Shown here piece by piece: positions 9,092-51,354 of a stretch of DNA of 64,000 nucleotides. How positions within the stretch are numbered: the first letter of the stretch is position 1; each line of letters starts with the position of its first letter. The notes below the pieces were generated by a model, which saw only the letters and a program-made list of their open reading frames with translations, did not search any database and was not told where the DNA came from. The stretch comes from an uncultured Gammaproteobacteria bacterium. GTDB taxonomy: Bacteria; Patescibacteriota; Microgenomatia; Levybacterales; UBA12049. Location of the stretch: NCBI GenBank assembly GCA_964507055.1, contig CAZDOJ010000001.1:206793-270792 (forward strand), read 5' to 3'. Made by a program: the position numbers and the translations under genes.

Positions 9092-9111
9092 AGATTGCTG
9101 TACCGTTTGAT

Positions 9112-29993: not shown

Positions 29994-30061
29994 AGCGGTA
30001 TTGCTTATTATACTCCATTCTTTTCTTGACTTGCCTGAGCTTATTTCATACTATTAGACTA

Positions 30062-31801: not shown

Positions 31802-31820
31802 ACTACTATTTAACTAGACC

Positions 31821-32888: not shown

Positions 32889-32899
32889 ACAGAATATGT

Positions 32900-34105
32900 A
32901 TGAGACTTTATTACAGAGCAGTAACGCAAGACGGTAAGACAATTCGCGGCCTTATTGAAGCACGTGATATTAAAGAAGCTGCAACGTATCTGCGCAAGCA
33001 CCAACTTGTCCCAGTCAAAATTATCCCTGAAACCAAAACTGGTGTTGCAAAATATTTCCCTTTTTTGAGTAGAACCTCATCGAATGATCTGGTCTTTTTT
33101 ACGAGGCAGCTTTCTTCGATGATTACTTCTGGATTGACACTTATTCAGGCTTTAACCATTTTGAAAAATCAAATGCAAAGCTCTGCAATGACTGAGATTG
33201 TCCAAGCCATTATCTCTGATGTAGAAGATGGAAAGAATTTATCACATGCTTTATCGAAGCATCCACATACATTTTCTCCAATTTATATTGCATTGATCAA
33301 AACTGCTGAATCTTCAGGTCTTTTGGATAAAGTATTGCAACGGTTGGCTGATAATTTAGAAAAAGAACAGCGTTTACAACGAACTATTCGCGGTGCCCTT
33401 CTCTATCCGGTCATTATTTTAATTATGATGTTTGTTGTGACTATTGTGATGATGATTTTCGTTGTGCCACAACTCACAACTATGTATACCAATCTTAATC
33501 TCGAACTTCCAATCACAACACTTATCGTTATCGCGATGTCTGATTTTATTACCAATTATTGGTATATTGTGCTCACGATTATTGCGGCTTCAGCTTATGG
33601 TTTGCATAACTGGTATAAAAAGCCTGCGGGTCGAAAAACGGTTGATGGATATATGCTCAAAACTCCCGTCTTTGGTAAGCTGATGAGTCAAAGCATGATG
33701 GCAGAATTCACACGGACACTTTCTCTTCTTATTACATCAGGGTCGTTAGTTGTGGAATCTCTAAATAAAAGTGCAGACGTGGTCACCAATGTTTTATATA
33801 AAGATGCAATCAATCTTGTCGCCAAACGAGTTGAAAAAGGTATTGATATCGGTGATGCTATGGAAGCGAGTCCACTTTTCCCTCCAATGGTTATCGAAAT
33901 GGTCAAGATTGGCGAACAGACTGGTAAATTGGATGATTCATTGCTCAAAGCTTCAGAGTATTTTGAACGTGAAGTTGAAGAGTCTGTAAAAGTTATGACC
34001 ACACTGCTTGAACCAATTATCATGATTATTCTTGCTTTGGGTGTAGGGTTCTTGATTATTGCGATCATCACTCCGATCTACAATCTTATTTCTTCAATTA
34101 GTTAG
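32900..34105 (+). CDS. pilC: type IV pilus inner-membrane platform protein PilC (GspF family)
   Basis: Duplicated T2SF domain (conserved L..GLTLIQAL and L..G..L..SL segments), three TM helices; 401 aa. Confidence 0.9.
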   Translation: MRLYYRAVTQDGKTIRGLIEARDIKEAATYLRKHQLVPVKIIPETKTGVAKYFPFLSRTSSNDLVFFTRQLSSMITSGLTLIQALTILKNQMQSSAMTEIVQAIISDVEDGKNLSHALSKHPHTFSPIYIALIKTAESSGLLDKVLQRLADNLEKEQRLQRTIRGALLYPVIILIMMFVVTIVMMIFVVPQLTTMYTNLNLELPITTLIVIAMSDFITNYWYIVLTIIAASAYGLHNWYKKPAGRKTVDGYMLKTPVFGKLMSQSMMAEFTRTLSLLITSGSLVVESLNKSADVVTNVLYKDAINLVAKRVEKGIDIGDAMEASPLFPPMVIEMVKIGEQTGKLDDSLLKASEYFEREVEESVKVMTTLLEPIIMIILALGVGFLIIAIITPIYNLISSIS

Positions 34106-34487
34106 CAGGTTGCGTTTCTGAGAGGTATTTTTTAACCTGTTCAATAAGGTCTGCAGGTGTAATATCAGCCTTGATTAAAAATGCGGTAGCTCCTTTTTTC
34201 AACGCGTCTTGTACAAGCGGTTCGTGGTCGAGATTGGTAAGCATGAGAATTGGTCCATTAGGAACAGGTGGCGGGGTTGCCTTGAGTGCATCCATAACAC
34301 CGAGACCATCAATCTTTGGCATCATTATATCCAGAAGGATCATGTCGTAACCGCCTTTGAGGAGTTTATCGAGAGCTTCTTGTCCGTTCACAGCAGTATC
34401 GACATCAAATCCCTCAGTCTTGAGGACTTCTTCGTAGAGCTCCCGGATATACAAATCGTCATCAATAACGATAACTTTTTTTGCCAT
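34098..34487 (-). CDS. stand-alone response-regulator receiver domain (CheY-like)
   Basis: DD...D phospho-acceptor pattern (VIVIDDD ... ILLDIMMPKIDG ... K in LIKAD). No output domain. The internal ATG (MAKKVIV) is preferred. Confidence 0.8.
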   Translation of the reverse strand: MAKKVIVIDDDLYIRELYEEVLKTEGFDVDTAVNGQEALDKLLKGGYDMILLDIMMPKIDGLGVMDALKATPPPVPNGPILMLTNLDHEPLVQDALKKGATAFLIKADITPADLIEQVKKYLSETQPAN

Positions 34488-34632
34488 GTCAACCTGATTA
34501 TCAGGAAATCTGACATTAAAGTCAATAGGACAGTTAAAACGCACAGTTTTGAGGCTACTAATTCTAAGTCAATGTGTAGCGATGAGGTATATTGGTAATT
34601 CTTTTAACATGGTATACTTTACTGTATTTATG

Positions 34633-39637: not shown

Positions 39638-40438
39638 TTAAGATGAAAAAAGTTTCTCAGTATTCTTATCGGCAGGATGGTACATAACTAGTTGAAATCT
39701 AGGGTCATTTATAACCTTTGCTGTAGAGACGTGAAAGCTTAGTGTTTGATATTTACCATTATAAGTATCTTGCATCGTTTTATATTCATAATCAAATAGT
39801 TTTTTCCCATAGGTTTCTTGATTTACTTCTGGCCAGAGTTTTCTGAATTCCTCAAATTGCATCAAATCTTTAACCAGATTCTTGTACCATTTTTCATTTT
39901 GATATTGCTCATTTTCTCCTTTAAATGCGGCTATTTGTGCTATCGCAAATGATTTTAAACTATTTTGATCTTCACCTTTCTTAACAATTACAGAAAATTG
40001 TTCTTTAGGAAAAAAAGGAAATGATAAAAAGCTAGGCTTATTTTCGATGATCCATGATAATTGGTTTGGATTCATTTTTGCAGTAAAAAGAGTATGTTTA
40101 TTTGCATATAGCCATCGGAAGCTAAAATCCATTAAATAAGCCGGATATCTCCATGTATCAATTTTTTCTTTAGTTTCTTCTAAAATATTACTGATTTCTT
40201 GTTCTGTCGGTAAATATCCTCCAACGAGTAAAAAATGACCTTTTTCTTGATGTGTTAAATTTAAAGCATTGATAATTCTTTCGGCAGTATCTCTGTTGGG
40301 TTTTCCTACTCGTCCTTGCTCAATCTTTGAGAGACGGCTTGTGTCTTTCCAACCCAAACTTAGTGATAAATCAACTTGAGAAAGCCTTTTCCTTAGCCGA
40401 TAGTCTTTAATTAATCCTCCTAATGTTGCAGTCATCAT
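39638..40438 (-). CDS. XRE-family HTH transcriptional regulator with ~200-aa C-terminal domain
   Basis: N-terminal LGGLIKDYRLRKRLSQVDLSLSLGWKDTSRLSKIEQGRVGKP = canonical XRE helix-turn-helix; 266 aa. First gene of the minus-strand string XRE-C-B-NDT/RHH. Confidence 0.65.
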   Translation of the reverse strand: MMTATLGGLIKDYRLRKRLSQVDLSLSLGWKDTSRLSKIEQGRVGKPNRDTAERIINALNLTHQEKGHFLLVGGYLPTEQEISNILEETKEKIDTWRYPAYLMDFSFRWLYANKHTLFTAKMNPNQLSWIIENKPSFLSFPFFPKEQFSVIVKKGEDQNSLKSFAIAQIAAFKGENEQYQNEKWYKNLVKDLMQFEEFRKLWPEVNQETYGKKLFDYEYKTMQDTYNGKYQTLSFHVSTAKVINDPRFQLVMYHPADKNTEKLFSS

Positions 40439-40487: not shown

Positions 40488-41588
40488 TTGATATTTTTAA
40501 TGCTATTAAATTATACTTATATAGTTATGACAGATAGAGAACCACATGGAGTCGCTATTGAGGGACGGCATAGAATTAAAGAAACTCCAGGTATTGAAAT
40601 AGAAATAAATACAAGTAGTAGAGATCTTTCATTAGCTATTGCGAGTTCGACAATGCTTTTAAAAGAGGTATTTGCTGATGCAGATTCTCAGCTCCCGTGG
40701 CTAAAACAGAAAGAGAGCAATGACCAATTTAGTTCAGACGCCGATATAAAACTTCGGCATGTTCATGGATTGCTCGATGCATATAGTGCTATACACAAAA
40801 GAGATGCCCCCACAAAAAATAGGTTTACAAGTAACTGGGGAATGCATTCGGATTATCTTGAAGCAAGAATCAATCAAATTGACGCAAATGTGGAAGCACA
40901 ACAAGAGAAGCTTTATGAAGAATCTACTAATTGGACCACTCAAGATGAAAGAAAAGTGGTCCGCGATGCTCATAAATTTGCAGCAAATTTAACAAAGGAT
41001 CAAAAAGATATTCTTTATTCTTCAACAGGTTTGTCTCCCGAAAAGGTTAAAGAAAAATTAGGTCGTTGGGGAATTACGGTTGGTGCTAATGTTGCCTCAA
41101 CATATGCATTAGATGGAACTGCAGTCATCGCTGGGCTTGCTTTGACAAAAACAGGTATACAAGAACATGTTAGTACAGAAACACTTATCGGTTTCTTAGC
41201 TGCCAGTTATGGTGTTTGGTTTAAAGGATTATACGAGAACGTGAAAGAAAATTGGAAGCTATTAGAAGAGCAGGGAGTAAGTACGAGTGCTTTATCAAAA
41301 GCGTTCCATGACTATTCTAAGTCTAAAGGGTGGAGTGAACGCTCTCAAAGACTTGCAACGGCTGCCGGTTACGTAGGTTTAGAAATAGCGAAAGAACTTC
41401 CTTTTTATCTTGGAGCATTTGGATCAGCAACATTTTTTGAGGGGATTTCAGATAAGGATGCAATAACTTTCCTTGCAGGTGCGAATATTGGTGGAGGATT
41501 TTATGAGTATACACTTGCAAAAGGTACTAAAATGGCTCGCAAGTGGATGGGGCGAAGAACTCAAAAACCTGAAAGGCCTAGTCGTTAG
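40488..41588 (+). CDS. hypothetical protein with Gly/Ala-rich amphipathic C-terminal half
   Basis: Intact 366-aa ORF divergent from the XRE regulator; no motif recognised. C-terminal ~170 aa rich in G/A/small residues (WGITVGANVASTYALDGTAVIAGLALTKTG...). Start may be the internal MTDREPHG. Confidence 0.4.
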   Translation: MIFLMLLNYTYIVMTDREPHGVAIEGRHRIKETPGIEIEINTSSRDLSLAIASSTMLLKEVFADADSQLPWLKQKESNDQFSSDADIKLRHVHGLLDAYSAIHKRDAPTKNRFTSNWGMHSDYLEARINQIDANVEAQQEKLYEESTNWTTQDERKVVRDAHKFAANLTKDQKDILYSSTGLSPEKVKEKLGRWGITVGANVASTYALDGTAVIAGLALTKTGIQEHVSTETLIGFLAASYGVWFKGLYENVKENWKLLEEQGVSTSALSKAFHDYSKSKGWSERSQRLATAAGYVGLEIAKELPFYLGAFGSATFFEGISDKDAITFLAGANIGGGFYEYTLAKGTKMARKWMGRRTQKPERPSR

Positions 41589-41589
41589 C

Positions 41590-42177
41590 TTATGCGGCTT
41601 TATCTAATTCAATAAGATATTTTGAAATTATTCCTTCTTCAATGTATATCGCTTTAGTATCAGGATCTAATTGTTTAAATCCTTCAATTGTTCCTCTACA
41701 CATAGGGCTTCCACATTGACATTGGAGGCCTTCTGCTACTGGATCATATTCCATAGCTGCATAATCTACTGAAACTTCATCCCCTTTAGGCATATCTTTT
41801 CTTGCAACAACTTCAATTCTGCCCGTGGTCTCTCCTTCTTCTCTTTCAACAATACGAATATATGCAGTTGGATCACAAGAATGGTTGGTAAAATGCCCAA
41901 AACTTGGTGTACCATCAGGATTTTTTGGATCAAGATGCTCAGTTGGACCATATTGGAATGTATATACTGTTGGGTGGTCAAGTATTGGACCGGTGATTGT
42001 GAAGATAACATCGCCTTTATTGATGGGTTCTTTTGCAATAGTACCAAATTGGCCTTCAACCATATTACTCTTAACAACCGTGACAATACCATTATCAGGA
42101 AGCACTCTTTCGGGTGTTCTGCGTTGTTCAGTTAGCTGTGCTGGCTTAGCACTGATTCCTCTTTCAGTCATGAGCAA
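41590..42177 (-). CDS. SET-domain protein (putative lysine methyltransferase)
   Basis: SET signature FTNHSCDPT (NHSC), EVSVDY (ELxxDY-like), post-SET Cys cluster CQCGSPMCRG; 195 aa. Confidence 0.8.
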   Translation of the reverse strand: MLMTERGISAKPAQLTEQRRTPERVLPDNGIVTVVKSNMVEGQFGTIAKEPINKGDVIFTITGPILDHPTVYTFQYGPTEHLDPKNPDGTPSFGHFTNHSCDPTAYIRIVEREEGETTGRIEVVARKDMPKGDEVSVDYAAMEYDPVAEGLQCQCGSPMCRGTIEGFKQLDPDTKAIYIEEGIISKYLIELDKAA

Positions 42178-42183
42178 ATTATA

Positions 42184-43308
42184 CTATAAGATATTAATAT
42201 TTGCAATATGCAAAATAGGTTTGGGAATGGCATGATAATTAGAGTATAGAGAAAACGTATATGCACCGACATTTCTAAAAATAAGCTTATCTCCTGCCTG
42301 TAAGTCTGAAGGCAGAGAAACACGCACAGCTAAAGTATCGTCGGGGTCAAGTGTATTACCTGATATACTAAAAGTTTCTTTTTTACCTGACTTGAAATAC
42401 TCTATGGGATAATTTAATTTACCTCTACTTTCAAGGATTTCAATAAGCCCATGATAAACTCCCATGTCAACAAATAACCATTTATTTTTTATTCGCTGAA
42501 CTTTCCTAGTAATAGTAGTCACAAGCGTTACTGCATCTGCAACAATTATTCTTCCCGGCTCAACCCAAAAAGAAATACCTTTTGGAAATTCTTTGATCTC
42601 TGTGTTTACTACTTCAGCTATATCTTCAATTGGAGGAGATTTTAAAGATTTATATTTAACTGGGAAACCACTTCCGATATTCATAATTCGGAAAGTTGGT
42701 AACGAGTTATAATATCTCCTAAAAATAGCATTACAATATTTAAGAGTAGCTTTCCAGGGCTCAAGTGACATTGTTTGAGAGCCTACATGAAAACTCATGC
42801 CGTAAATATCAATTTTATTTTCAACTGCATAATTTAAAATAACTTCAATATCTTGACTTGATGCTCCAAACTTATCAATATACTCATAGAATGTACCTTC
42901 TGCTGGTGGAAGAATTCTTAAGAAATATTTTTTATTTTGAGCATATTTCATAAGCATTTGAAGTTCCTCTAGTGAATCAAACGTAAAATTTTCTACTCCA
43001 AACTCAATGGCTGACTTAACTGTTGATGGGGTTTTAATGGGATGTGTTAAAAGCACTTTATTTGTATTAATACTTAAGGATTTTAGTATTTTAACCTCTC
43101 CTATAGTAGCCGCATCAAAGAAGCTCCCTTGATCTGCAACTGTCTTTAATATATCGATTTGTGGATTAGTTTTAACGGAGTAGAAAGTTTTAAACTTAGG
43201 AAATAGCTTTTTAAAAGCAGAATAATTACTGTTAATCTTGTTAAGATTCAGTATATAAAAAGGAGTTTTTTTATCCCTAATAAAAGCCGCGAGCTCCTGC
43301 GACGCCAT
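42184..43308 (-). CDS. PLP-dependent decarboxylase of the Orn/Lys/Arg/DAP-decarboxylase (alanine-racemase-fold) family
   Basis: PLP-Lys motif FYSVKTNP, FHVGSQ, EPGR. The expected C-terminal G-P-T-C-D motif reads SGNTLDPDD, i.e. Asn at the usual catalytic Cys position. Confidence 0.65.
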   Translation of the reverse strand: MASQELAAFIRDKKTPFYILNLNKINSNYSAFKKLFPKFKTFYSVKTNPQIDILKTVADQGSFFDAATIGEVKILKSLSINTNKVLLTHPIKTPSTVKSAIEFGVENFTFDSLEELQMLMKYAQNKKYFLRILPPAEGTFYEYIDKFGASSQDIEVILNYAVENKIDIYGMSFHVGSQTMSLEPWKATLKYCNAIFRRYYNSLPTFRIMNIGSGFPVKYKSLKSPPIEDIAEVVNTEIKEFPKGISFWVEPGRIIVADAVTLVTTITRKVQRIKNKWLFVDMGVYHGLIEILESRGKLNYPIEYFKSGKKETFSISGNTLDPDDTLAVRVSLPSDLQAGDKLIFRNVGAYTFSLYSNYHAIPKPILHIANINIL

Positions 43309-43405
43309 TTTTGTAGTATATCTTATATTCTTTCAAAATAAAATATAGTATATTGACATTTATTATGAAAAAGGGAACAATGAGTTTAGTCTTATTCTTT
43401 AAAGT

Positions 43406-44212
43406 ATGCATCTTACAAAGGTTGCTAAATTTGTTTTAGGTTATTATATTTTTATCCTCATTTGGTGGACTTATTCCTATTTCTTTAATCTGCACGAAAA
43501 TCCATATAGCTTTATCTATCAGTTTGCATTTGGTTTAATTCCTTTGTTAGGAGGAATTGCAGGAATAATAAGATCAGCGAAATGGGGAATGTTTAAAAGT
43601 AAAGTTGGAATGGCATTATTTTTCATTTCTATGGGTCTCATAACTTGGGGCATTGGGCAAATGTTTTGGTCACTTTATTATAATTGGCTTATGCAAATTG
43701 AAATACCATATCCCTCACTGGCAGATGTTGGCTACATACTTAGCTGGCCTCTATGGACTATTGGTACTATAAATTTGTCTTATGCAACAGGTGCGAAGTT
43801 CTCTTTAAAAAATATTAGAGGAAAAGTACTTCTTTTTACTTTACCTGTTCTACTTATATCTCTTTCATATTACCTTCTTATTATTGTTGCTCGTCAAGGT
43901 TTATTAAGCGATTTTGAAGGTGGGGCATTTAAAGTATTTTTTGATCTTGCTTACCCAATTGGAGATGTTGTTATACTTGCTCTTGCTGTACTCGTTTATG
44001 GTCTGTCTTTCAACTATATTGGGGGAAAGTTTAAATGGCCAATAATAATGATTTTAGTGGGTTTTCTTGTAAATTATATTGTTGATTTTTCGTTTTCTTA
44101 TACAACTACCAATGGAACTTATTTTAATGGTCATTGGGTTGATATACTTTTCCCAACAGCAATGGCTTTAATTGCCTTTGGTGTTAATAGCTTTGATACT
44201 AAAGATAGTTAG
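43406..44212 (+). CDS. hypothetical polytopic membrane protein (about 8 TM)
   Basis: Very hydrophobic 268-aa ORF with aromatic-rich helices; no soluble domain. Confidence 0.45.
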   Translation: MHLTKVAKFVLGYYIFILIWWTYSYFFNLHENPYSFIYQFAFGLIPLLGGIAGIIRSAKWGMFKSKVGMALFFISMGLITWGIGQMFWSLYYNWLMQIEIPYPSLADVGYILSWPLWTIGTINLSYATGAKFSLKNIRGKVLLFTLPVLLISLSYYLLIIVARQGLLSDFEGGAFKVFFDLAYPIGDVVILALAVLVYGLSFNYIGGKFKWPIIMILVGFLVNYIVDFSFSYTTTNGTYFNGHWVDILFPTAMALIAFGVNSFDTKDS

Positions 44213-44257: not shown

Positions 44258-44542
44258 GTGGATATGGATATATATTCGGAATTAGCAAAAAAAATAATAA
44301 GAGAACAAGAATCTATAATAGGTCCTGTAGCTTTAGAACAAGCTCGTAAAGTTAGTGGACTTATTATTGATGGTGATGCTGAAAATATTACATTTAATGG
44401 CAATAAAAAAGAGATTATAGAAAATTTAGTAAAGCAGTATGAACATCTTTTTGGGCTAACTTCTGTAGAAGTTTGCCGAGAAGCAGTAAAAAGTCTTATT
44501 TCTCAGGCACCAAAAGATGATGTTCCACAAGTACTTCTGTAA
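44258..44542 (+). CDS. hypothetical small protein (94 aa)
   Basis: Intact ORF between the membrane protein and the histidine kinase, same strand; no motif. Confidence 0.3.
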   Translation: MDMDIYSELAKKIIREQESIIGPVALEQARKVSGLIIDGDAENITFNGNKKEIIENLVKQYEHLFGLTSVEVCREAVKSLISQAPKDDVPQVLL

Positions 44543-44569: not shown

Positions 44570-46018
44570 ATGAATTTTATTGATTCTTTAAGGACTTTCC
44601 TTGGTTTTTCTACGGTTACTAATAAAGATCAAGCATCTGATGAGTTGTCTCATATAAATCAAGAGATGTACAAGAAGAGTGCTGAGCTATCCGAAAAAAA
44701 TAAAACCTTATCATTGTTACAAAATATTAACGGCCTTATTTTAAGTTCTATTACACATCCAGATGAAATTGCAACTCAAGTTACAAAGGTGCTTGTAACA
44801 GAGACTGACTTCAACATTGCATCTATTTATCTCTATGAGAAAAATAGTAACTCTTTAAAACGACTTGCACGAGCATACCTTGATATTAACAATACGCTTT
44901 ATTCCCAATCGGCATCTAAACTTGAGTTGCGACTCGATAATACTGAAAACTTAGTTATACAATCAATCACAAAAAGAGAAGTACTTTATTCTAACTCTCT
45001 TGATCGGATAGTAATTGAAAAAATTGAAGAGAATGTAGATATAAAAACTGTATTTATATCCCCACTGATAGTAAGAAAAGATCTAATAGGTGCCATTGTT
45101 ATCGGTATGAATGATCCACAAGAAACGATTTCTGAATATAGACATGCTTTATTGAGTCAACTAGCTGAGTTAGTAGGTATTGGTATTGATAATTCTTTGC
45201 TCTATAATGAGGTACAAAACGCTAATGAGAAATTGAAGGAATTGGATTTGTTAAAGAATGAATTCGTTTCTGTGGCTTCGCATGAACTTCGTACACCTAT
45301 GACCGCTATCAAATCATATCTCTGGATGGCACTAGAGGATCGTGGAGGGAAGTTAAATGAGAAACAACGGTATTACATCCAACGAGGATATAATTCTGTC
45401 GATCGATTAATACGCTTGGTCAATGACATGTTGAATATCTCTCGTATTGAAGCTGGTCGTATCACAGTAAATATGCAAGCCGTGGATCTTGAAGCATTGG
45501 CTCAGGAAGTTGTTGATGAAGTCCAACCTCGTGCCAAGGAAGTTGGTGTTACTGTCACCATCTCCAAGCATGAAGCGTTGCCTCACGTGCTTGCTGATCC
45601 CGATAAGATAAAAGAAGTGTTCTTCAACTTGATTGGTAATTCCATCAAATTTACTCCGAAGGATGGGACAGTGGTTGTTAATTTCACTGAAAAAGATGGA
45701 TTTATCGAAACACAAATTGTCGATACTGGAAGTGGTATTGAGGCTGAAGATATTGGAAAGCTTTTCCAAAAGTTTGGGCTTATGCCTGGATCATATACAA
45801 CTAATCAACCAGCCATGGGTACTGGACTTGGTTTGTACATCTGCCGCTCAATTGTGGAACTCCATCAAGGAAAAATCTGGGCGGAATCTGATGGACGAGG
45901 AAAAGGGGCGACATTTACTTTCCAGTTAAAGAAGTTTACCAAGGCTGATCAAGAGCAATATAACCAAAGCACTGCAAATAGTAAAGAAGACGTTGGATTG
46001 ATCCACAGTGAAATTTGA
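44570..46018 (+). CDS. cytoplasmic GAF-domain sensor histidine kinase
   Basis: GAF-like N-terminal region (...IASIYLYEKNSNSLKRLARAY...LIGAIVIGMN), H-box FVSVASHELRTPMTAI, N/G1/G2 boxes (LIGNSIKFTP, IVDTGSGI, GTGLGLYICRSIV); no TM. Confidence 0.85.
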   Translation: MNFIDSLRTFLGFSTVTNKDQASDELSHINQEMYKKSAELSEKNKTLSLLQNINGLILSSITHPDEIATQVTKVLVTETDFNIASIYLYEKNSNSLKRLARAYLDINNTLYSQSASKLELRLDNTENLVIQSITKREVLYSNSLDRIVIEKIEENVDIKTVFISPLIVRKDLIGAIVIGMNDPQETISEYRHALLSQLAELVGIGIDNSLLYNEVQNANEKLKELDLLKNEFVSVASHELRTPMTAIKSYLWMALEDRGGKLNEKQRYYIQRGYNSVDRLIRLVNDMLNISRIEAGRITVNMQAVDLEALAQEVVDEVQPRAKEVGVTVTISKHEALPHVLADPDKIKEVFFNLIGNSIKFTPKDGTVVVNFTEKDGFIETQIVDTGSGIEAEDIGKLFQKFGLMPGSYTTNQPAMGTGLGLYICRSIVELHQGKIWAESDGRGKGATFTFQLKKFTKADQEQYNQSTANSKEDVGLIHSEI

Positions 46019-46060: not shown

Positions 46061-46085
46061 ATCCTTCGACTTCGCTCAGGATGAC
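46061..46085 (-). repeat. copy 1 of a short intergenic repeat gtcatcctgagcgaagtcgaaggat (read on minus strand); overlaps the pilD ATG
   Basis: Same 25-mer, with a 10-nt GAA-pentamer-like insertion, recurs on the plus strand at 60538-60580. Confidence 0.4.
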
Positions 46086-46929
46086 ATATATGATAATTCC
46101 GTTCTACCTCTTTATTTTCCTTTTAGGTACAATAGTCGGAAGTTTTCTTGGAGTTGTCGCAGACAGAGTAGCCAATAACGAATCTATATGGCGAGGACGT
46201 TCTCATTGTGATCATTGTCGACATAAGTTGGCTTGGAATGATCTTATCCCACTTGTTTCTTTCCTGATGTTGAAAAGACAATGCAGATATTGCCACAAAA
46301 AACTTGATTGGAATTACTTTATCATTGAAGTCATCACAGGAGTATCTTTTGTGCTTGCGACATATGCTCTCTTTCAAGATAGTTTGGCGATTTTCTTTGG
46401 ACTCCAATATATTTTGGTACTCCTCTACTACTTCGCAATTATTAGCTCTTTAATTGCAATTGCATTCACTGATCTAAAATATGGCATTATTCCTTTTAAA
46501 GTTGTAGCCGTTGCAGTGGCTATCGCTGTCTTTTGGTTTTTCCTTTTTCCTGGATTGTATATTACACCACTCGAAGCGACAGCACTTGGTTTGCAAACTG
46601 ATATTTTGAATTTAATCGCTTCAGGATTTGGGGCTGCACTGTTCTTTTTTGCATTGTTTTATATTACTAAAGGGAGAGGGTTGGGTTTTGGGGATGTAGT
46701 ATATGCCTTCTTGATGGGACTTATTTTAGGTTTTCCAAAAGTAATTCTCGCACTGTACTTAGCTTTTGTAACTGGTGCGATTGTTTCACTTGTACTCATC
46801 CTTGCCAAAAAGAAAAAATTTAAAGGTGGAACAATTCCTTTTGGCCCCTTTCTTGTTACAGGGACGATTATTAGTTTGCTTTGGGGAAATATGATTATCG
46901 ATTATGCGAGGCGATTTGTGGGATTGTAA
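46081..46929 (+). CDS. pilD: prepilin peptidase / N-methyltransferase (A24 family)
   Basis: N-terminal Zn-binding CxxC...CxxC (CDHCRHKL...CRYCHKKL), catalytic Asp-containing TM core, 8 TM. Confidence 0.9.
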   Translation: MTYMIIPFYLFIFLLGTIVGSFLGVVADRVANNESIWRGRSHCDHCRHKLAWNDLIPLVSFLMLKRQCRYCHKKLDWNYFIIEVITGVSFVLATYALFQDSLAIFFGLQYILVLLYYFAIISSLIAIAFTDLKYGIIPFKVVAVAVAIAVFWFFLFPGLYITPLEATALGLQTDILNLIASGFGAALFFFALFYITKGRGLGFGDVVYAFLMGLILGFPKVILALYLAFVTGAIVSLVLILAKKKKFKGGTIPFGPFLVTGTIISLLWGNMIIDYARRFVGL

Positions 46930-46965
46930 GTTACGAGTTGAAATTTCATACGTCAGGTGCACATA

Positions 46966-47484
46966 ATGAAGTATATGCAAAAAGGATTTACATTGGTCGA
47001 AATGCTTATCGTTCTTGGGATCGTAGGAATTGTGGCGACGATGCTCATTGTTGGTATCAATCCGCTCGATCAGATCCGTAAATCAAGTGATACAGATCGT
47101 AAGTCAGATATCGCACAATTACAAAAAGCATTGGAGTTATATTATCAGGACAACGGTAGTTATCCTCCTTCATCAGCAGATTACAAATTATATATCGGGA
47201 CAACAACATTGGCGTGGGGTACCGCTTCATGGCTTCCGTATATGAGTAAATTGCCAAAAGATCCTAGCCCACAGCGTTCGTATGTATATTATGTCCCAGC
47301 GTCATCAAATGGACAAACCTATTATATTTATAGTAGTTTAGAGAGAGGGGCAAAGGATCCACAAGTATGTAACGCTGGCAACGCTTGTGTTAGCATCACA
47401 GCTGGTGTGGCTGGATTCCCCACTGCAGCAGCATGTGGATCAACATGTAATTACGGAGTTTCGAGTCCAAATGTTTCACCATGA
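46966..47484 (+). CDS. type IV pilin (class III signal peptide)
   Basis: Leader MKYMQKG followed by FTLVEMLIVLGIVGIVA (G|F cleavage site, Glu+5); C-terminal Cys pair. Confidence 0.8.
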   Translation: MKYMQKGFTLVEMLIVLGIVGIVATMLIVGINPLDQIRKSSDTDRKSDIAQLQKALELYYQDNGSYPPSSADYKLYIGTTTLAWGTASWLPYMSKLPKDPSPQRSYVYYVPASSNGQTYYIYSSLERGAKDPQVCNAGNACVSITAGVAGFPTAAACGSTCNYGVSSPNVSP

Positions 47485-47924
47485 GAAATATATTTAAACA
47501 ATCAAAAGGCTTTACACTCATTGAACTCTTAATTGTGTTGGCAATTATCGGTACGCTGACATCAATTATTATGGTGAACTTTTTGAGTGCTCGAGAACGT
47601 GGGCGTGATGGAGAGCGAAAGACTGAACTTCGACAACTTCAGACAGCATTTGAGTTATATCGCGCAGATGTTGGGACATATCCACCAGCACCATTGCCTA
47701 CATGTGATACTGCTCTTGCAAGTGGTGGGACTACATACATTCAGAAAATTCCATGTGATCCCACAAATTCCGGGCAACATGTTTATACATATACAACGAC
47801 TGGAACAACATATACACTCTTTTCATGTCTTGAGAATGAAAAAGATTCACAAAAAGATAAAATAAATAATGCAAGCTATTGTACTGGTACCACTAATTGG
47901 TCTTTTACGCTGACAAATCCATAG
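47481..47924 (+). CDS. type IV pilin
   Basis: MRNIFKQSKG|FTLIELLIVLAIIG; C-terminal Cys residues. Confidence 0.8.
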   Translation: MRNIFKQSKGFTLIELLIVLAIIGTLTSIIMVNFLSARERGRDGERKTELRQLQTAFELYRADVGTYPPAPLPTCDTALASGGTTYIQKIPCDPTNSGQHVYTYTTTGTTYTLFSCLENEKDSQKDKINNASYCTGTTNWSFTLTNP

Positions 47925-47963
47925 AGTTGAAACTTGTGAGCAGAACGATGATAATGGACATAG

Positions 47964-48455
47964 ATGAGAAAACTGTCCATACATACATACACTTCTTCAC
48001 TGCAAAAAGGTTTTACTCTCATTGAGCTACTTATCGTTATTGGTATCGTCGGGGCACTTACTTCAATCGGACTTGCATCATATTCAAGCTATACGACAGG
48101 GCAAGCAATCCAAACCGCAACCGCTGAAATGGTTCACATGTTAAATCGTGCCAAATCGAGTTCAATTTCTCAAGTAAAACAGCCACAATGTGGAACTTCT
48201 CCAATTACTGGCTATCAAGTCTCTTTCACGCCTCCTGGTCCTGTTTATACAATGTCTGTTCGGTGCAATAACACAACATATCCTGTGACCTCGAAAGAGT
48301 TACCTACAGGTGTTACATTGGCAGCAGGATCTACAAGCCCAATTTTCTTCCCAGTATCAAAAGGGACGAGTTCCCCTGCAACGATTACATTGAATGGTCC
48401 GTCTAAGACAAAAGTGATTACAATCACAGCGACCGGTAATATCATGACGAATTGA
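47964..48455 (+). CDS. type IV pilin / minor pilin (long leader)
   Basis: ...SSLQKG|FTLIELLIVIGIVGAL. Confidence 0.75.
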   Translation: MRKLSIHTYTSSLQKGFTLIELLIVIGIVGALTSIGLASYSSYTTGQAIQTATAEMVHMLNRAKSSSISQVKQPQCGTSPITGYQVSFTPPGPVYTMSVRCNNTTYPVTSKELPTGVTLAAGSTSPIFFPVSKGTSSPATITLNGPSKTKVITITATGNIMTN

Positions 48456-48456
48456 T

Positions 48457-48936
48457 ATGAAATTTTTACAAAGAAATAATTTACAAAAGGGTGAAACACT
48501 CATTGAAGCGTTAGCTGCTCTCGCTTTGGTAGCTATTGTTATTACTGCAATTACGACATTAATTACGACCTCGTTAAGTAATGCGACATATAATGAGAAT
48601 CAGACCCTTGCAACGAAATTTGCCCAACAAGGGATTGAATCCGTCAGGCAAATCAGGAATGCGAATTATGTCGCTTTCCGTAGCTTTAATGGTTTATATT
48701 GTCTTGGCAAAGGACAATCGACGCTTGGAACGCCACAGACAGCATGTGCATCACCTAACACTGATAGTTTTATTCGGTCTGTGACAATCGAGCAGTCCCC
48801 AGGATGTGCGACAAATGTGGCTCGTGTGACCGTCAATGTCGCTTTCACCGATGGAAAATGCACAAACAATGCCTACTGCCATGTCCAAACGCATACATCG
48901 TGTCTCTCAACAGTTAATCCCAACGGTTCACTATGA
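48457..48936 (+). CDS. pilin-like protein with atypical +1 residue (QKG|ETLIEAL)
   Basis: Class III signal-peptide pattern with Glu at +1 and +5; four Cys in the C-terminal domain. Confidence 0.6.
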   Translation: MKFLQRNNLQKGETLIEALAALALVAIVITAITTLITTSLSNATYNENQTLATKFAQQGIESVRQIRNANYVAFRSFNGLYCLGKGQSTLGTPQTACASPNTDSFIRSVTIEQSPGCATNVARVTVNVAFTDGKCTNNAYCHVQTHTSCLSTVNPNGSL

Positions 48937-49451
48937 CAAAGTTACAATTACAAAAAGGGTATACACTTATTGAACTCTTAACCGTGATCGGTATTTTGAG
49001 TGTGATCGGAGTGATCGTTGTCACAGTGATTACAATTAGTTTGCGTGGTTCGCAAAAATCTGACAAACTTGAAATTGTACGACAAGGCGGCGACACTGCT
49101 TTGTCACAAATGGTTCGCAGTATTCGCTATGCCAAGACGCTCAATGCTCCAGCATCTTGTGTGCCTGCAACCAATGTCTCATCAATCACAATTACATCAC
49201 TTCAAGATAATGGACAGACAACATATAGCTGTAGTTCTGGTACAATCGCTTCAAATAGTGCCTCACTTTTGGATACCAATGCTGTTATCGTCAATGCGTG
49301 TTCATTTACTTGTTCCCAACAACGAGTGAGTGATCCCCCAACTATTCAAATTCAGTTTTCCTTGAGTGCAAAGAATGAAAGTAGCTTTAGCGAAACAAAA
49401 GCTACAATCCCCTTTCAAACAAGCGTAACTTTGCGTAATTACGCTCGCTAG
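48933..49451 (+). CDS. pilin-like protein (minor pilin)
   Basis: LQKG|YTLIELLTVIGILSVIG. Confidence 0.7.
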   Translation: MTKLQLQKGYTLIELLTVIGILSVIGVIVVTVITISLRGSQKSDKLEIVRQGGDTALSQMVRSIRYAKTLNAPASCVPATNVSSITITSLQDNGQTTYSCSSGTIASNSASLLDTNAVIVNACSFTCSQQRVSDPPTIQIQFSLSAKNESSFSETKATIPFQTSVTLRNYAR

Positions 49452-49496
49452 CCGATTGACACTACCTCTACAGCTTGTTACGATAAATACGGAGCA

Positions 49497-50318
49497 TTGT
49501 ATTTACGAATGGAATATCAAAGAGGTCAAGTTTTACTTATCGTTGTATTGGTTATGGTCACTGCATTAACTGTCGGTTTATCCGTCGCCGCCCGCACAAT
49601 TACAAATATCCGAACTTCTCAAGAAGCTGAAAATTCTGAGAAAGCGTTTTCTGCTGCAGAAGCTGGTATCGAACAATCGTTAACAAACGGTGTGCCTGTA
49701 ACAGGGAGTTTCTCCAATAAATCTTCCTACCAGACAACAGTCAGTACTATTTCTGGAATTGAATTTCCGTTAAATAATGGTGTACCTGTTCTCAAAGATG
49801 ATTCCCTTGATCTTTGGTTATCAACCTACCCAGCTTATTCCAATCCATGGAGCGGGACACTGACATTGTATTGGGGAGAAACTTCAAATACTTGTACACC
49901 ATCAGAAGCTACCAATAGTATGGCTGCACTTGAAGTCATCGTTATGAACGGTACGAAAAATAATCCACAAACGACTCGATATGCATTGGATCCGTGCTCG
50001 CAGCGGAGTTTGAGTAATAAGTTCGAATTCATCTCACCGGGTGGCGGAACAATTGCTGGGAAGACGTATGCTTTTCGCCGGACATTAACAATTAGCTCTG
50101 GTATGTTCGTCCGTATTATTCCGTTGTATTCGCCGACAAATATTGCGGTACGAGGTTGTGACGCTGCCAATACAACATGTAACGCACTTCCTTCCCAAGG
50201 AACGGTCGTTGAAGCTGTCGGAACAGCTGATAACACTACGAGAAAACTTGTGAGTTTCCGAAGATATCCAAAACTGCCCACAGAACTTTTCCCATATAGT
50301 TTTTTTGCACCGCAATAA
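49497..50318 (+). CDS. PilX-like minor pilin / pilus assembly protein
   Basis: N-terminal QRGQVLLIVVLVMVTALTVGLSVAA resembles PilX N-termini; large C-terminal domain. Confidence 0.5.
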   Translation: MYLRMEYQRGQVLLIVVLVMVTALTVGLSVAARTITNIRTSQEAENSEKAFSAAEAGIEQSLTNGVPVTGSFSNKSSYQTTVSTISGIEFPLNNGVPVLKDDSLDLWLSTYPAYSNPWSGTLTLYWGETSNTCTPSEATNSMAALEVIVMNGTKNNPQTTRYALDPCSQRSLSNKFEFISPGGGTIAGKTYAFRRTLTISSGMFVRIIPLYSPTNIAVRGCDAANTTCNALPSQGTVVEAVGTADNTTRKLVSFRRYPKLPTELFPYSFFAPQ

Positions 50319-50319
50319 T

Positions 50320-51354
50320 ATGAAAAGTAATGCTTTTGGATTAGACATAGGAACAAACTCGATTAAGGTCGCGTGGCTCAATCGTGACAATGATGTCATT
50401 TCATATGCGACGTCACATGTTGTTCCTACTCCTGCACAGGGAATGCAATCAGAGTCTCCTTTTGACCATCAAGAAATGGCACAAGTAATTAATAAAATGG
50501 TTATTGATGCCAAGATCAGTACCAACAATGTCAACATTGCACTTCCAGAGAATCATGCATACACCAAAGTAGTTGAAATGCCAAATCTTTCTGACAAAGA
50601 ACTTTCGAGTGCGATTTATTGGGAAGCAGAACAATATATTCCCGTGCCATTGGATACGGTGACACTTGCCTGGAGTAAGTTGCGTCCTATCAAAAGTGCT
50701 ATCGGAGAAGATCGTATGCAAGTATTGTTGGTTGCTGCTCCGAAGGATCTGATTAAACGCTATCAAAATATTCTTGATCTAGCGGGATTATCGATCGTTT
50801 CAGTTGAAACAGAAATTCTTTCAGTGATTCGTGGAGTCATCCCACAAAGCAACAATCCAACGTCGATTATCGCCAATATCGGTGCGATGGGTACGACCTT
50901 GGGAATTGTGCAGAATGGTATCATTATTTTTAATTATTCCGTTCCACTTGGCGGCGTTGCATTAACTCGAGCAATTGCGTCAGATTTCGGTTTGCCTTTG
51001 GATCAGGCAGAAGAATACAAGAGAGTCTACGGACTTTCCGATAAGAACTTTGGAGGAAAGGTTGGTCAGGCGATCTCCCCAATCCTTACCGCATTACTCA
51101 GTGAAGTCAAAAAAGCGTTAACTTTTTATACGGATAAGTATAAAAACGAAACGCCAATCAATCAAATCCTTTTAACTGGAGGTGGAGCAACACTTCCAGG
51201 TCTTGCGATCTACTTCGCACAAAACATCGGACTTGAGGCTGTTATTGCCAACCCTTGGAGCATGCTCAATATCCAAGGGGTTCCTGCAGGAATTGAAGCA
51301 AAAGGTCCTGAATATGCTGTCGCGGTTGGACTCGCAATGAAAGAATATGAGTGA
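50320..51354 (+). CDS. pilM: type IV pilus assembly protein PilM (actin-like ATPase fold)
   Basis: FGLDIGTNSIKVAWL phosphate-1 motif; PilM-typical C-terminal LLTGGGATLPGL. Confidence 0.85.
   Translation: MKSNAFGLDIGTNSIKVAWLNRDNDVISYATSHVVPTPAQGMQSESPFDHQEMAQVINKMVIDAKISTNNVNIALPENHAYTKVVEMPNLSDKELSSAIYWEAEQYIPVPLDTVTLAWSKLRPIKSAIGEDRMQVLLVAAPKDLIKRYQNILDLAGLSIVSVETEILSVIRGVIPQSNNPTSIIANIGAMGTTLGIVQNGIIIFNYSVPLGGVALTRAIASDFGLPLDQAEEYKRVYGLSDKNFGGKVGQAISPILTALLSEVKKALTFYTDKYKNETPINQILLTGGGATLPGLAIYFAQNIGLEAVIANPWSMLNIQGVPAGIEAKGPEYAVAVGLAMKEYE

What the first reader, a model, noticed from the sequence alone, without database searches (positions are those of the whole stretch)
41590..43308. 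SET-domain methyltransferase immediately downstream of a PLP decarboxylase whose catalytic-Cys position is Asn
The two genes are co-oriented and 7 nt apart. The SET protein has NHSC, EVSVDY and a post-SET Cys cluster, and bacterial SET proteins are rare. The upstream type-III PLP decarboxylase (FYSVKTNP, FHVGSQ, EPGR) reads SGNTLDPDD where Orn/DAP decarboxylases have G-P-T-C-D with the catalytic Cys. Together they could form a small-molecule module, for example a methylated amine, or the SET protein could target a host or partner protein.
Basis: partly seen in the sequence, partly recalled or inferred. Interest (0 to 1): 0.55.

Follow-up and report, generated by a model that had tools for sequence, protein, structure and literature searches.

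The report
Decarboxylase–SET methyltransferase amine-making gene pair
Two adjacent genes in a tiny uncultured (Patescibacteria-type) bacterium encode a vitamin-B6 decarboxylase that has lost its usual catalytic cysteine and a SET methyltransferase; they always travel together, are fused in some relatives, and probably make a methylated amine next to a membrane sensor and kinase inside the pilus gene cluster.

Summary
The two genes are real, on the same strand, and 6 or 12 nt apart depending on the start codon. One detail is wrong. In alignments to solved Orn/Lys decarboxylases the catalytic Cys column is Leu320; Asn318 replaces the preceding Pro. Eighteen of 20 critical ODC residues are kept. 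The two changed ones, Cys360→Leu and Phe397→Tyr, both lie at the Cα/CO2 site and are invariant in the clade.

Every Leu-type decarboxylase with enough context has a SET gene adjacent or fused (13 lineages, two fused subclades). None of 47 Cys- or Gly-type relatives with adequate flanks does.

The pair sits next to a Patescibacteria-wide trio: an 8-helix membrane protein that looks like a 7TM receptor, a ~91-aa protein, and a sensor histidine kinase, often inside type IV pilus clusters. All five trios sampled without bias had a neighbouring decarboxylase, of three unrelated folds across all loci. Three had a methyltransferase, either SET or GntF-like.

This favours a small-molecule methylated-amine pathway over protein or host methylation. 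The product is unresolved: an N-methylated diamine is favoured, and DMSP-amine by the BurB/BurI route is the rival. I rate it a new variant of a known kind.

The parts
42184..43308 (-). Fold-type III PLP decarboxylase, Leu-type clade (374 aa). Keeps K46 (Schiff base), D65, E71, R131, H174, S177, G212-G214, E250, R253, D281, D321, D324 and Y350. Leu320 is in the Cys360 column, Asn318 in the Pro column, and Tyr358-His359 are in the Phe397-Asn398 columns.
   Evidence: list of 20 critical ODC residues from PMC5518511
41590..42177 (-). SET-domain methyltransferase (195 aa from TTG 42177; 193 aa from ATG 42171). It has NHSC, the Tyr139 of VDY, the post-SET C153-x-C155-x4-C160 cluster, and a family-specific C-terminal helical tail (GFKQL...EEGIISKYL).
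   Evidence: AF2 model pLDDT 89.5; Foldseek MLL1 E 2e-9 and BurB E 1e-8
42178..42183 (-). 6-nt spacer between the decarboxylase stop codon (TAG 42184-42186) and the SET TTG start; the spacer is 12 nt if ATG 42171 is the start. This is operon-like spacing with no terminator between the genes.
43309..43405 (.). 97-bp divergent intergenic region between the decarboxylase-SET operon and the membrane-protein/kinase operon. It is the likely shared control region; the promoter-like hexamers there are consensus matches only.
43406..44212 (+). 268-aa, 8-helix membrane protein from a family that is very widespread in Patescibacteria. Its fold resembles 7TM receptors. The same domain is fused to the N-terminus of the neighbouring histidine kinase in L091 and L094, so it is inferred to be a sensor input module.
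   Evidence: gene tables
44258..44542 (+). 94-aa protein with no family match. It always sits between the membrane protein and the kinase (91-97 aa in relatives).
44570..46018 (+). Sensor histidine kinase with no predicted membrane segment (GAF - HisKA - HATPase_c, 482 aa).
40488..41588 (+). 366-aa protein with no family match and a hydrophobic C-terminal half, convergent with SET. It is conserved only in the nearest relatives (L007, L008, L091; 28-32% identity). Possible accessory; role unknown.
39638..40438 (-). HTH_3/HTH_31 regulator (266 aa). A similar regulator (HTH_3 plus a weak MLTR_LBD match) lies next to the module in L007.
34098..34544 (-). Single-domain response regulator (148 aa). 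It is the candidate partner of the kinase by position only; the same arrangement is seen in L093, L176 and L178.
30026..34105 (+). Type IV pilus ATPase and platform genes (PilB-, PilT- and PilC-like) flanking one side of the module.
   Evidence: (L001 gene table)
46081..51354 (+). Prepilin peptidase, five pilin-like genes, a 273-aa ORF (49497-50318, no family hit) and a PilM-like gene, flanking the other side of the module.

Best explanation
The two genes form an operon for a two-step small-molecule pathway.

The SET enzyme transfers methyl groups from SAM to the side chain of a free cationic or cation-forming amino acid. L-lysine or ornithine N-methylation is the most likely case; methionine S-methylation, as in BurB, is the alternative.

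The PLP decarboxylase is a specialised derivative of Orn/Lys decarboxylases. It keeps the whole PLP site and both Asp residues that hold a distal positive charge. It has swapped the Cα proton-donor Cys for Leu and the CO2-pocket Phe for Tyr. It removes the carboxylate to give a methylated amine, such as an N-methylated cadaverine or putrescine, or alternatively dimethylsulfonio-propylamine. The order of the two steps could be reversed.

The amine is inferred to serve a conserved signalling cassette encoded divergently from the pair: a 7TM-receptor-like membrane protein, a ~91-aa protein, a GAF/PAS histidine kinase and a CheY-like regulator. In many Patescibacteria this cassette is embedded in the type IV pilus cluster.

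Shown: gene adjacency and fusion; strict co-variation of the Leu substitution with SET; retention of the catalytic apparatus in both enzymes; recurrent attachment of decarboxylases and methyltransferases to the trio.

Inferred: that the substrate is a small molecule; the identity of substrate and product; the order of steps; Tyr358 or His359 as the substitute proton donor; the link to signalling and pili.
For: (1) Fusion and adjacency. P0011, P0012, P0014, P0015, P0057, L098 and L179 are single Dec-SET polypeptides. The genes are adjacent in the window, L007, L008, L091, L093 and L094. An NJ tree shows one monophyletic Leu clade with two separate fused subclades.

(2) Co-variation. All Leu-type enzymes with context have SET; 0 of 47 Cys- or Gly-type relatives with adequate flanks do.

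(3) Both enzymes look active. 18 of 20 critical ODC residues are kept. NHSC, the Tyr of DY and the four Zn-site Cys are invariant in SET, and the SET fold is confirmed.

(4) Displacement by unrelated enzymes at the same locus. L177 and L180 have a fold-III decarboxylase plus an NNMT/PNMT/TEMT-family methyltransferase that passes the NCBIfam cutoff for GntF, an amine N-methyltransferase (107-109 bits against a cutoff of 60). L135 has a decarboxylase plus a class-I methyltransferase. L010-L012 have an AdoMet_dc-family decarboxylase plus SET. L176 and L178 have an OKR_DC_1 Lys/Arg/Orn-type decarboxylase.

(5) All five trios retrieved through the membrane protein alone have a decarboxylase next to them.

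(6) The SET family occurs in amino-acid-handling fusions, with an NRPS and with an ATP-grasp ligase. The only characterised bacterial small-molecule SET, BurB, methylates a free amino acid and works with the decarboxylase BurI (PMC7496086). Its B. pseudomallei counterpart malI is annotated as diaminopimelate decarboxylase, and I equate BurI with malI from memory of the bur and mal cluster naming.

Against: No biochemical data exist for any member.

The SET protein is no closer to BurB than to eukaryotic KMT2 SET domains: 22% identity, similar E-values and TM-scores. Sequence therefore does not indicate a small-molecule substrate.

Loss of the Cα proton donor could mean a different reaction, or weak activity, rather than simple decarboxylation.

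Synteny with the trio could partly reflect vertical inheritance within one Patescibacteria lineage. The trio is far more widespread than the pair (745+ hits against about 20).

The variants may not all make the same product: the GntF-like-coupled decarboxylases keep the Cys.

One Leu-type decarboxylase on a short high-GC contig (L097) shows no SET in the 600 bp available.
Confidence: 0.6

Rival explanations
1. BurB/BurI-type sulfonium route. SET S-methylates L-methionine to S-methylmethionine, and the decarboxylase converts it to DMSP-amine (3-dimethylsulfoniopropylamine). That compound accumulates as the end product because no aminotransferase or aldehyde dehydrogenase follows.
For: BurB is a SET-domain Met S-methyltransferase that acts before the decarboxylase BurI. 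Its B. pseudomallei counterpart malI is annotated as diaminopimelate decarboxylase (I equate BurI with malI from memory of the cluster naming), and the Spartina SMM decarboxylase is an ODC paralogue. BurB aligns over more of the SET profile than any other PDB hit (positions 22-151 of 169, E 1.2e-13). The related SETs of L010-L012 and L015 are paired with AdoMet_dc-family enzymes, whose classic substrate is a sulfonium amino acid. Pfam PF01234 includes thioether S-methyltransferases. By inference, removing a nucleophilic Cys next to an alkylating sulfonium substrate would make sense.
Against: The SET protein is not specifically BurB-like (22% identity, equal to MLL1). No BurD/BurE-type aminotransferase or aldehyde dehydrogenase lies within 10 kb. 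At the same locus, variants without any methyltransferase carry Lys/Arg/Orn-type decarboxylases. The class-I methyltransferase variants match an N-methyltransferase (GntF), not an S-methyltransferase. I could not retrieve BurI or SMMDC sequences, so it is not known whether they lack the Cys.
Confidence: 0.22
2. SET is a protein-lysine methyltransferase that modifies a partner or host protein. The decarboxylase is an unrelated housekeeping polyamine enzyme that merely shares the operon.
For: Public annotation calls the fused protein 'SET domain-containing protein-lysine N-methyltransferase'. The best PDB sequence and fold matches are histone lysine methyltransferases. Patescibacteria are episymbionts and pilus genes lie nearby.
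Against: Recurrent fusion with the decarboxylase, and strict co-variation with an active-site change in it, are hard to explain this way. SET is replaced at the same locus by small-molecule amine methyltransferases. I saw no obvious N-terminal signal peptide in the SET sequence (inspection of the translation; no prediction tool was run). The family-specific C-terminal tail lies beyond the region aligned with the histone methyltransferases, whose alignments end at profile position 136-142, while BurB aligns to position 151.
Confidence: 0.08
3. Changed reaction specificity or a composite enzyme. Without the Cα proton donor, the decarboxylase holds the quinonoid intermediate. That intermediate is then either mis-protonated at C4' (decarboxylation-dependent transamination, giving an amino-aldehyde) or captured by the SAM methyl group supplied by the attached SET domain (decarboxylative C-methylation, giving an alpha-methyl amine).
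For: Cys360 ensures correct protonation of the decarboxylation intermediate in ODC (PMC3253432). From my own knowledge, ODC C360A/S mutants mainly carry out decarboxylation-dependent transamination (Jackson et al. 2000). The Cys loss occurs only where SET is attached or fused. The second changed residue, Phe397 to Tyr, lies in the CO2/Cα pocket.
Against: SET active sites are buried channels built for a nucleophile that enters from the face opposite to SAM; no known SET methylates a carbanion. Unfused pairs, including one on opposite strands (L094), work without a covalent link. The invariant Tyr358/His359 offer a simple replacement proton donor. No structural model of the complex could be made.
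Confidence: 0.06
4. The decarboxylase homologue is a catalytically dead regulatory or binding protein of the antizyme-inhibitor type, and only SET is an enzyme.
For: The catalytic Cys is absent. The fused subclade P0057/L098 also replaces His197 with Met.
Against: The Schiff-base Lys, the phosphate loop, Glu274, Arg277, Tyr389 and both substrate-binding Asp are invariant or nearly so across 14 members at 38-66% identity. The replacement residues Leu320 and Tyr358 are themselves invariant, which points to selection on an active site rather than decay.
Confidence: 0.04

Closest known systems
BurB / BurI of the Burkholderia malleicyprol (bur/mal) cluster, and MSMT/SMMDC of Streptomyces mobaraensis: Met -> S-methylmethionine -> DMSP-amine
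   Same: A small stand-alone SET-domain methyltransferase works with a decarboxylase (BurI; its B. pseudomallei counterpart malI is annotated as diaminopimelate decarboxylase, fold-type III) on a free amino acid to give a methylated cationic amine. BurB aligns with the window SET family from the N-SET region into the C-terminal tail and has a similar fold (TM 0.55/0.66).
   Different: Only 22% identity, no closer than MLL1. There are no downstream aminotransferase, aldehyde dehydrogenase or NRPS-PKS genes. Here the two enzymes are adjacent or fused, and the decarboxylase lacks the Cys. The genomic partner is a sensor kinase cassette in Patescibacteria, not a secondary-metabolite cluster. The substrate is unknown.
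Bacterial and eukaryotic Orn/Lys decarboxylases of fold-type III (V. vulnificus L/ODC 2plj, Selenomonas LDC/ODC 5gjm, human and T. brucei ODC)
   Same: Best sequence matches (E 6e-49 to 1e-37). Same two-domain architecture. 18 of 20 critical ODC residues are kept, including both Asp that bind the distal ammonium.
   Different: Cys360 to Leu, Pro358 to Asn (Trp, Phe, Lys or Ala in relatives), Phe397-Asn398 to Tyr-His, and a clade-specific YHGLIEILES loop. It scores below the NCBIfam lysA cutoff (186 against 298 bits).
Eukaryotic KMT2/MLL, ASH1L and SETD2 SET domains (protein lysine methyltransferases)
   Same: SET fold, NHSC, Tyr of the (Y/F)DY motif, post-SET CxCx4C zinc cluster.
   Different: It is a single domain of about 190 aa with an extra conserved C-terminal helical tail. 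It is operonic or fused with decarboxylases, an NRPS or an ATP-grasp enzyme. No protein substrate is indicated.
GntF-like (NNMT/PNMT/TEMT family) amine N-methyltransferase plus fold-III decarboxylase pairs of other Patescibacteria (L177, L180)
   Same: Same genomic slot, immediately next to the same membrane protein / 91-aa / kinase trio, and the same logic of decarboxylase plus SAM methyltransferase.
   Different: The methyltransferase fold is unrelated (class I). The decarboxylase keeps the catalytic Cys (GPSCD), so the order of steps or the substrate may differ.
Acid-resistance and polyamine decarboxylase modules (CadA/CadB/CadC type; own knowledge)
   Same: A basic-amino-acid decarboxylase genetically coupled to a membrane sensor. 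OKR_DC_1 decarboxylases and EamA exporters occupy the same slot in L176, L178, L100 and L107.
   Different: There is no APC-type antiporter. The membrane protein looks like a 7TM receptor, not a transporter. A methyltransferase is present. Regulation is by a histidine kinase rather than a ToxR-like activator.

Membership tests
Fold-type III PLP decarboxylases (Orn/DAP/Arg decarboxylase family, PF02784 + PF00278) | N-terminal TIM-barrel PLP domain plus C-terminal beta-sheet domain | tested here: met
   Pfam 1.4e-45 and 4.1e-13, both above cutoff; full-length alignment to 2plj, 5gjm and human ODC
Fold-type III PLP decarboxylases (Orn/DAP/Arg decarboxylase family, PF02784 + PF00278) | Schiff-base Lys and PLP-binding residues (ODC K69, D88, E94, R154, H197, S200, G235-237, E274, R277, Y389) | tested here: met
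   K46, D65, E71, R131, H174, S177, G212-S213-G214, E250, R253 and Y350 are aligned and are invariant or nearly invariant in the clade (residue list from PMC5518511)
Fold-type III PLP decarboxylases (Orn/DAP/Arg decarboxylase family, PF02784 + PF00278) | Catalytic Cys in the GP(T/S)C(D/E) loop (ODC Cys360), the Cα proton donor | tested here: not met
   Leu320 occupies the column. It is invariant in all 14 aligned clade members plus L179, L097 and L008. No invariant Cys occurs elsewhere
Fold-type III PLP decarboxylases (Orn/DAP/Arg decarboxylase family, PF02784 + PF00278) | Acidic residues that bind a distal cationic group (ODC Asp332, Asp361), which define the basic-amino-acid subgroup | tested here: met
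   D281 (Asn in four fused members) and D321 (invariant)
Diaminopimelate decarboxylase LysA (NCBIfam TIGR01048) | Score above the curated equivalog cutoff | tested here: not met
   185.9 bits against a cutoff of 297.9
SET-domain methyltransferases (PF00856) | SET fold with the NHSC and (x)DY motifs | tested here: met
   Pfam 8e-12; N98-H99-S100-C101, D138 and Y139 are invariant; AF2 model pLDDT 89.5 matches MLL1 and BurB
SET-domain methyltransferases (PF00856) | Post-SET zinc cluster (Cys of NHSC plus CxCx4C) | tested here: met
   C101, C153, C155 and C160 are invariant across 15 family members. Metal binding itself cannot be tested here.
SET-domain methyltransferases (PF00856) | Protein-lysine substrate | not testable with these tools
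   Context argues against it: fusion to a decarboxylase, and replacement by GntF-like methyltransferases.
BurB/BurI-type methionine methylation pathway to DMSP | SET enzyme orthologous to BurB and specific for L-Met | tested here: inconclusive
   Homologous (phmmer 2.6e-5; profile 1.2e-13; Foldseek 1e-8; 22% identity) but no closer than KMT2A. Specificity cannot be tested.
BurB/BurI-type methionine methylation pathway to DMSP | Fold-type III SMM decarboxylase orthologous to BurI/SMMDC | not tested
   BurI and SMMDC sequences could not be retrieved with the available collections. The only information is that malI, which I take to be the B. pseudomallei counterpart of BurI, is annotated as diaminopimelate decarboxylase and that BurI shares 24% identity with a plant DapDC.
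BurB/BurI-type methionine methylation pathway to DMSP | Downstream DMSP-amine aminotransferase and DMSP-aldehyde dehydrogenase (BurD/BurE) in the cluster | tested here: not met
   Neither is present among the genes within about 10 kb on either side in the window / L001, or in L007, L089, L091, L093 and L094
Antizyme-inhibitor-like inactive ODC homologues | Loss of the PLP Lys and other cofactor-binding residues | tested here: not met
   All cofactor-binding residues are retained

The most novel reading that the evidence does not exclude
Patescibacteria carry a self-contained 'biogenic-amine' signalling circuit. An amino-acid decarboxylase, with a SET or PNMT-family methyltransferase, synthesises a methylated amine. 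An EamA exporter releases it in some lineages. A 7TM-receptor-like membrane protein, coupled through a ~91-aa adaptor to a histidine kinase and a CheY-like regulator, senses it and controls type IV pili, and so attachment to hosts or DNA uptake. The SET-coupled decarboxylase with Cys replaced by Leu would then be a new enzyme subclass specialised for pre-methylated ('onium') amino acids.
Probability: 0.25. Interest if true: 0.85.

Novelty: new variant of a known kind. Interest (0 to 1): 0.68.

Why it matters
It defines a coherent clade of fold-type III decarboxylases that lacks the cysteine usually treated as part of the catalytic apparatus. The clade compensates with a fixed Leu/Tyr pair and exists only in partnership with a SET methyltransferase. 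I found no description of it in the papers searched, and the public names seen were generic. It therefore offers a natural experiment on how PLP reaction specificity is controlled.

It would also be a second context, after BurB, in which a prokaryotic SET domain appears to act on a metabolite rather than a protein.

The wider pattern is that three unrelated decarboxylase folds and three unrelated methyltransferase types are recruited to one sensor-kinase cassette, often inside pilus gene clusters of Patescibacteria. This points to an amine made for signalling or surface function in organisms whose physiology and host interaction are largely unknown. It gives concrete, cheap experiments: two small soluble enzymes and a handful of candidate substrates.

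Tried and rejected
(1) BurB and BurI sequences. I tried to obtain them for a residue-level comparison. PDB searches with the window SET, the profiles, P0069 and the NRPS-fused SET never placed BurB in the five alignments that are printed. A plasmid tblastn gave only unrelated SET genes. The Liao & Seebeck paper is not held. Whether BurI/SMMDC keep the Cys therefore remains unknown.

(2) Fold-III decarboxylase next to distant SET relatives: none in 80 GTDB loci. This looked at first like a refutation, until the upstream 124-149-aa ORFs in L010-L012 and L015 proved to be AdoMet_dc-family decarboxylases. The equivalent small ORFs in L016, L009 and L093 are not.

(3) Pfam at E<=10 and PADLOC on the membrane protein, the 94-aa protein and the 366-aa protein gave no hits. 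NCBIfam, run on the membrane protein and the 366-aa protein, also gave none. A defence-system reading has no support.

(4) Rfam on the whole window: nothing.

(5) Pseudoenzyme reading: rejected on conservation of the cofactor site.

(6) Literature searches for SET plus decarboxylase gene neighbourhoods, and for Patescibacteria polyamine and pilus links, found no prior description.

(7) The metagenome scan used generic motifs, so it returned mostly outgroup decarboxylases. These served as the negative set.
Full report
**What is there**

On the - strand, ORF 42184..43308 (374 aa) is a fold-type III PLP decarboxylase (Pfam Orn_Arg_deC_N 1.4e-45, Orn_DAP_Arg_deC 4e-13). ORF 41590..42177 (195 aa) is a SET-domain protein (Pfam 8e-12). 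The decarboxylase stop codon (TAG, 42184-42186) is followed after 6 nt by a TTG and after 12 nt by the ATG used in public gene calls. No terminator-like site lies between the genes.

The surrounding genes are type IV pilus genes, a glycoside hydrolase, a glycosyltransferase and regulators. Closest homologues of the neighbouring genes come from Patescibacteria (CPR) metagenome-assembled genomes.

**Correction of the key observation**

HMMER alignments to solved structures place SGNTLDPDD against SGPTCDSVD (V. vulnificus Lys/Orn decarboxylase, 2plj), GGPSCDGID (Selenomonas, 5gjm) and WGPTCDGLD (human ODC). The Cys360 column is therefore Leu320.

I mapped the 20 residues listed as critical for ODC (PMC5518511) through the same alignment. 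Eighteen are kept: K46, D65, E71, R131, K146, G148, H174, S177, G212-214, E250, R253, D281, D321, D324, G348 and Y350. The two that differ are Cys360→Leu320 and Phe397→Tyr358, with Asn398→His359 next to it. Cys360 ensures correct protonation of the decarboxylation intermediate (PMC3253432), and Phe397 lines the CO2 pocket. Both changes therefore sit at the Cα/CO2 locus.

No Cys is invariant anywhere in the clade.

**The substitution is a clade character tied to SET**

A homologue search found 13 proteins at 45-100% identity. All carry G-x-T-L-D-P-D-D, with x = Asn, Trp or Phe. Four of them (P0011, P0012, P0014, P0015) are single polypeptides made of decarboxylase plus SET. More distant fused members (P0057, L098, L179; x = Lys) also have the Leu.

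Genomic look-ups show the two genes adjacent in L007, L008, L091, L093 and L094. The next relatives out have GP(T/S)CD or GPTGD.

In a metagenome sample, 45 outgroup loci had at least 1 kb on both sides. None of them, nor L177 or L180 (47 loci in all), has a SET gene. A neighbour-joining tree gives one monophyletic Leu clade that contains two separate fused subclades.

The only unresolved case is L097, a 1.7-kb high-GC contig with GATLDPDD and no SET in the 600 bp that follow.

**Both proteins look like working enzymes**

The decarboxylase keeps its cofactor site and both Asp residues that hold a distal positive charge. The replacement residues are themselves invariant. This argues against an antizyme-inhibitor-like dead protein.

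The SET protein keeps NHSC, the Tyr of DY and the four zinc-site Cys. Its AlphaFold model (pLDDT 89.5) matches MLL1 (E 2e-9) and BurB (E 1e-8) equally well, each at about 22% identity.

An exhaustive profile search shows a family of ~170-200-aa single-domain SET proteins that share a C-terminal tail (…CRGxIxGYKDLPxxxKxxYxxEGII…). Members are also found fused to an NRPS (C-A-PCP-TE-SET, P0046) and to an ATP-grasp D-Ala-D-Ala-ligase-like domain (P0040). Both are enzymes that handle amino acids.

**The wider system**

The pair is always encoded next to three genes: a ~268-aa membrane protein, a 91-97-aa protein and a sensor histidine kinase. In most loci these run divergently from the pair. In the window they are 43406-44212, 44258-44542 and 44570-46018.

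The membrane protein belongs to a very large Patescibacteria family: 745 hits, the 120 listed at 51-100% identity. All five have a decarboxylase next to the trio:
- L176 and L178: an OKR_DC_1 (fold-type I, Lys/Arg/Orn-type) decarboxylase, with an EamA exporter in L176.
- L177 and L180: a fold-III decarboxylase plus an NNMT/PNMT/TEMT-family methyltransferase. This methyltransferase scores 107-109 bits against the NCBIfam model for GntF (cutoff 60). NCBIfam names GntF as the guanitoxin-pathway N-methyltransferase; that it dimethylates a primary amine is from my own knowledge.
- L179: a Dec-SET fusion.

Other loci add further variants:
- L100 and L107: EamA plus a Gly-variant fold-III decarboxylase.
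- L135: the same, plus a class-I methyltransferase.
- L010-L012: an AdoMet_dc-family (pyruvoyl) decarboxylase plus a SET 38-45% identical to the window's. All are beside the same trio.
- L015, a Verrucomicrobiota MAG: the AdoMet_dc plus SET pair without the trio.

Three unrelated decarboxylase folds and three unrelated methyltransferase types therefore fill the same slot. This is the signature of non-orthologous displacement within one functional system. The class-I replacements are small-molecule amine methyltransferases. That is the main argument that SET acts on a metabolite here.

**The membrane protein as a sensor**

In the window, L093, L176 and L178 the whole unit lies inside the type IV pilus cluster, next to a single-domain response regulator. 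In L089, L094 and L180 it does not.

**Mechanism proposed**

- Shown: operon or fusion; co-variation of the Leu substitution with SET; intact catalytic sites; recurrent association of decarboxylases and methyltransferases with the sensor trio.
- Inferred: SET methylates the side chain of a free amino acid. The specialised decarboxylase, with the nucleophilic Cys removed and Tyr358 or His359 as replacement acid, converts the resulting 'onium' amino acid to a methylated amine. That amine serves the adjacent sensor system.

*Product identity.* I favour Lys- or Orn-derived N-methyl diamines, for four reasons:
- Variants without a methyltransferase use Lys/Arg/Orn-type decarboxylases.
- The class-I methyltransferases resemble an N-methyltransferase.
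- The fold-III enzymes keep both cation-binding Asp.
- Lysine N-methylation is the canonical SET reaction.

The serious rival is the BurB/BurI chemistry, Met → S-methylmethionine → DMSP-amine (PMC12542666, PMC7496086). The AdoMet_dc partners fit that route well.

*Order of steps.* Methylation first would explain why only the SET-coupled decarboxylases are remodelled, while the GntF-like-coupled ones keep the Cys. This is inference.

**Comparison with known systems**

The closest precedent is BurB/BurI. It uses the same two enzyme families working on a free amino acid. Membership is not established:
- BurB is no closer than KMT2 SET domains.
- The downstream BurD/BurE-type genes are absent.
- I could not obtain BurI to test orthology.

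The decarboxylase belongs to the fold-type III family but fails one classic feature, the catalytic Cys. It scores below the LysA cutoff. I found no paper that describes SET-decarboxylase fusions or this Patescibacteria cassette. Public records call the fusion a 'protein-lysine N-methyltransferase', which is probably misleading.

**Verdict**

The 'small-molecule methylated amine' interpretation is the best supported, and the 'host or partner protein' alternative is not. I rate it a new variant of a known kind, with an unusual enzymological feature and an unexpected link to a conserved sensor-kinase and pilus locus. Interest is 0.68.

Noticed in passing
window 37375-37662, 39100-39327, 39345-39575 (all - strand): Three small paralogous ORFs (95, 75 and 76 aa) share a motif ...DTTLSP.T...RG(Y/F)EY(I/V)DDIY...RLG(L/M)PKRNESS(Y/F)YGLYIP. 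They lie between the regulator genes downstream of the module. They have no PADLOC hit, and Pfam was not run on them.
   Followed up: partly
L091 4489-6777 and 11641-13935; L094 10755-12767: The 268-aa membrane-protein domain recurs as the N-terminal part of the adjacent histidine kinases (55% and 38% identity) and of an NB-ARC STAND NTPase (40%). This suggests it is a portable sensor input module.
   Followed up: partly
L010 9448-10507, L011 9613-10567, L012 9360-10477, L015 9594-10501: A conserved subfamily of ~125-aa AdoMet_dc-family (pyruvoyl) decarboxylases (motif FIETSNVVCH) sits immediately upstream of SET genes of the same family, in Paceibacteria, Zambryskibacteria, Saccharibacteria and a Verrucomicrobiota MAG. 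In L015 a stand-alone LPG_synthase_C-like gene (8625-9533) precedes the pair.
   Followed up: partly
L100, L107, L135, P0018: A second clade of trio-associated fold-III decarboxylases has Gly in the catalytic Cys column (GPTGD). It is preceded by an EamA exporter rather than paired with SET. This looks like an independent loss of the Cys.
   Followed up: partly
P0057, L098 (fused Dec-SET subclade): His197 of ODC, which stacks on the PLP ring (window H174), is replaced by Met (SFMVGSQ) in two fused members. The third member of that subclade (L179) keeps the His.
   Followed up: no
window 40488-41588 (+): A 366-aa protein with no family match and a hydrophobic C-terminal half lies convergent with SET; the two ORF ends are one base apart. 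It is conserved (28-32% identity) only in the nearest relatives (L007, L008, L091).
   Followed up: partly
P0035, P0036, P0040 (representative library): Very long proteins (1415-1479 aa) carry up to eight matched stretches to this SET family's profile (Pfam finds four or five SET stretches in the two that were scanned). P0040 also carries an ATP-grasp Dala_Dala_lig_C segment. Their origin is unknown.
   Followed up: no
L097 (1666-bp high-GC contig): A Leu-type decarboxylase (GATLDPDD) apparently from outside the low-GC Patescibacteria is followed by a 115-aa membrane ORF rather than SET. It may be an exception to the pairing rule, or SET may lie off the contig.
   Followed up: partly
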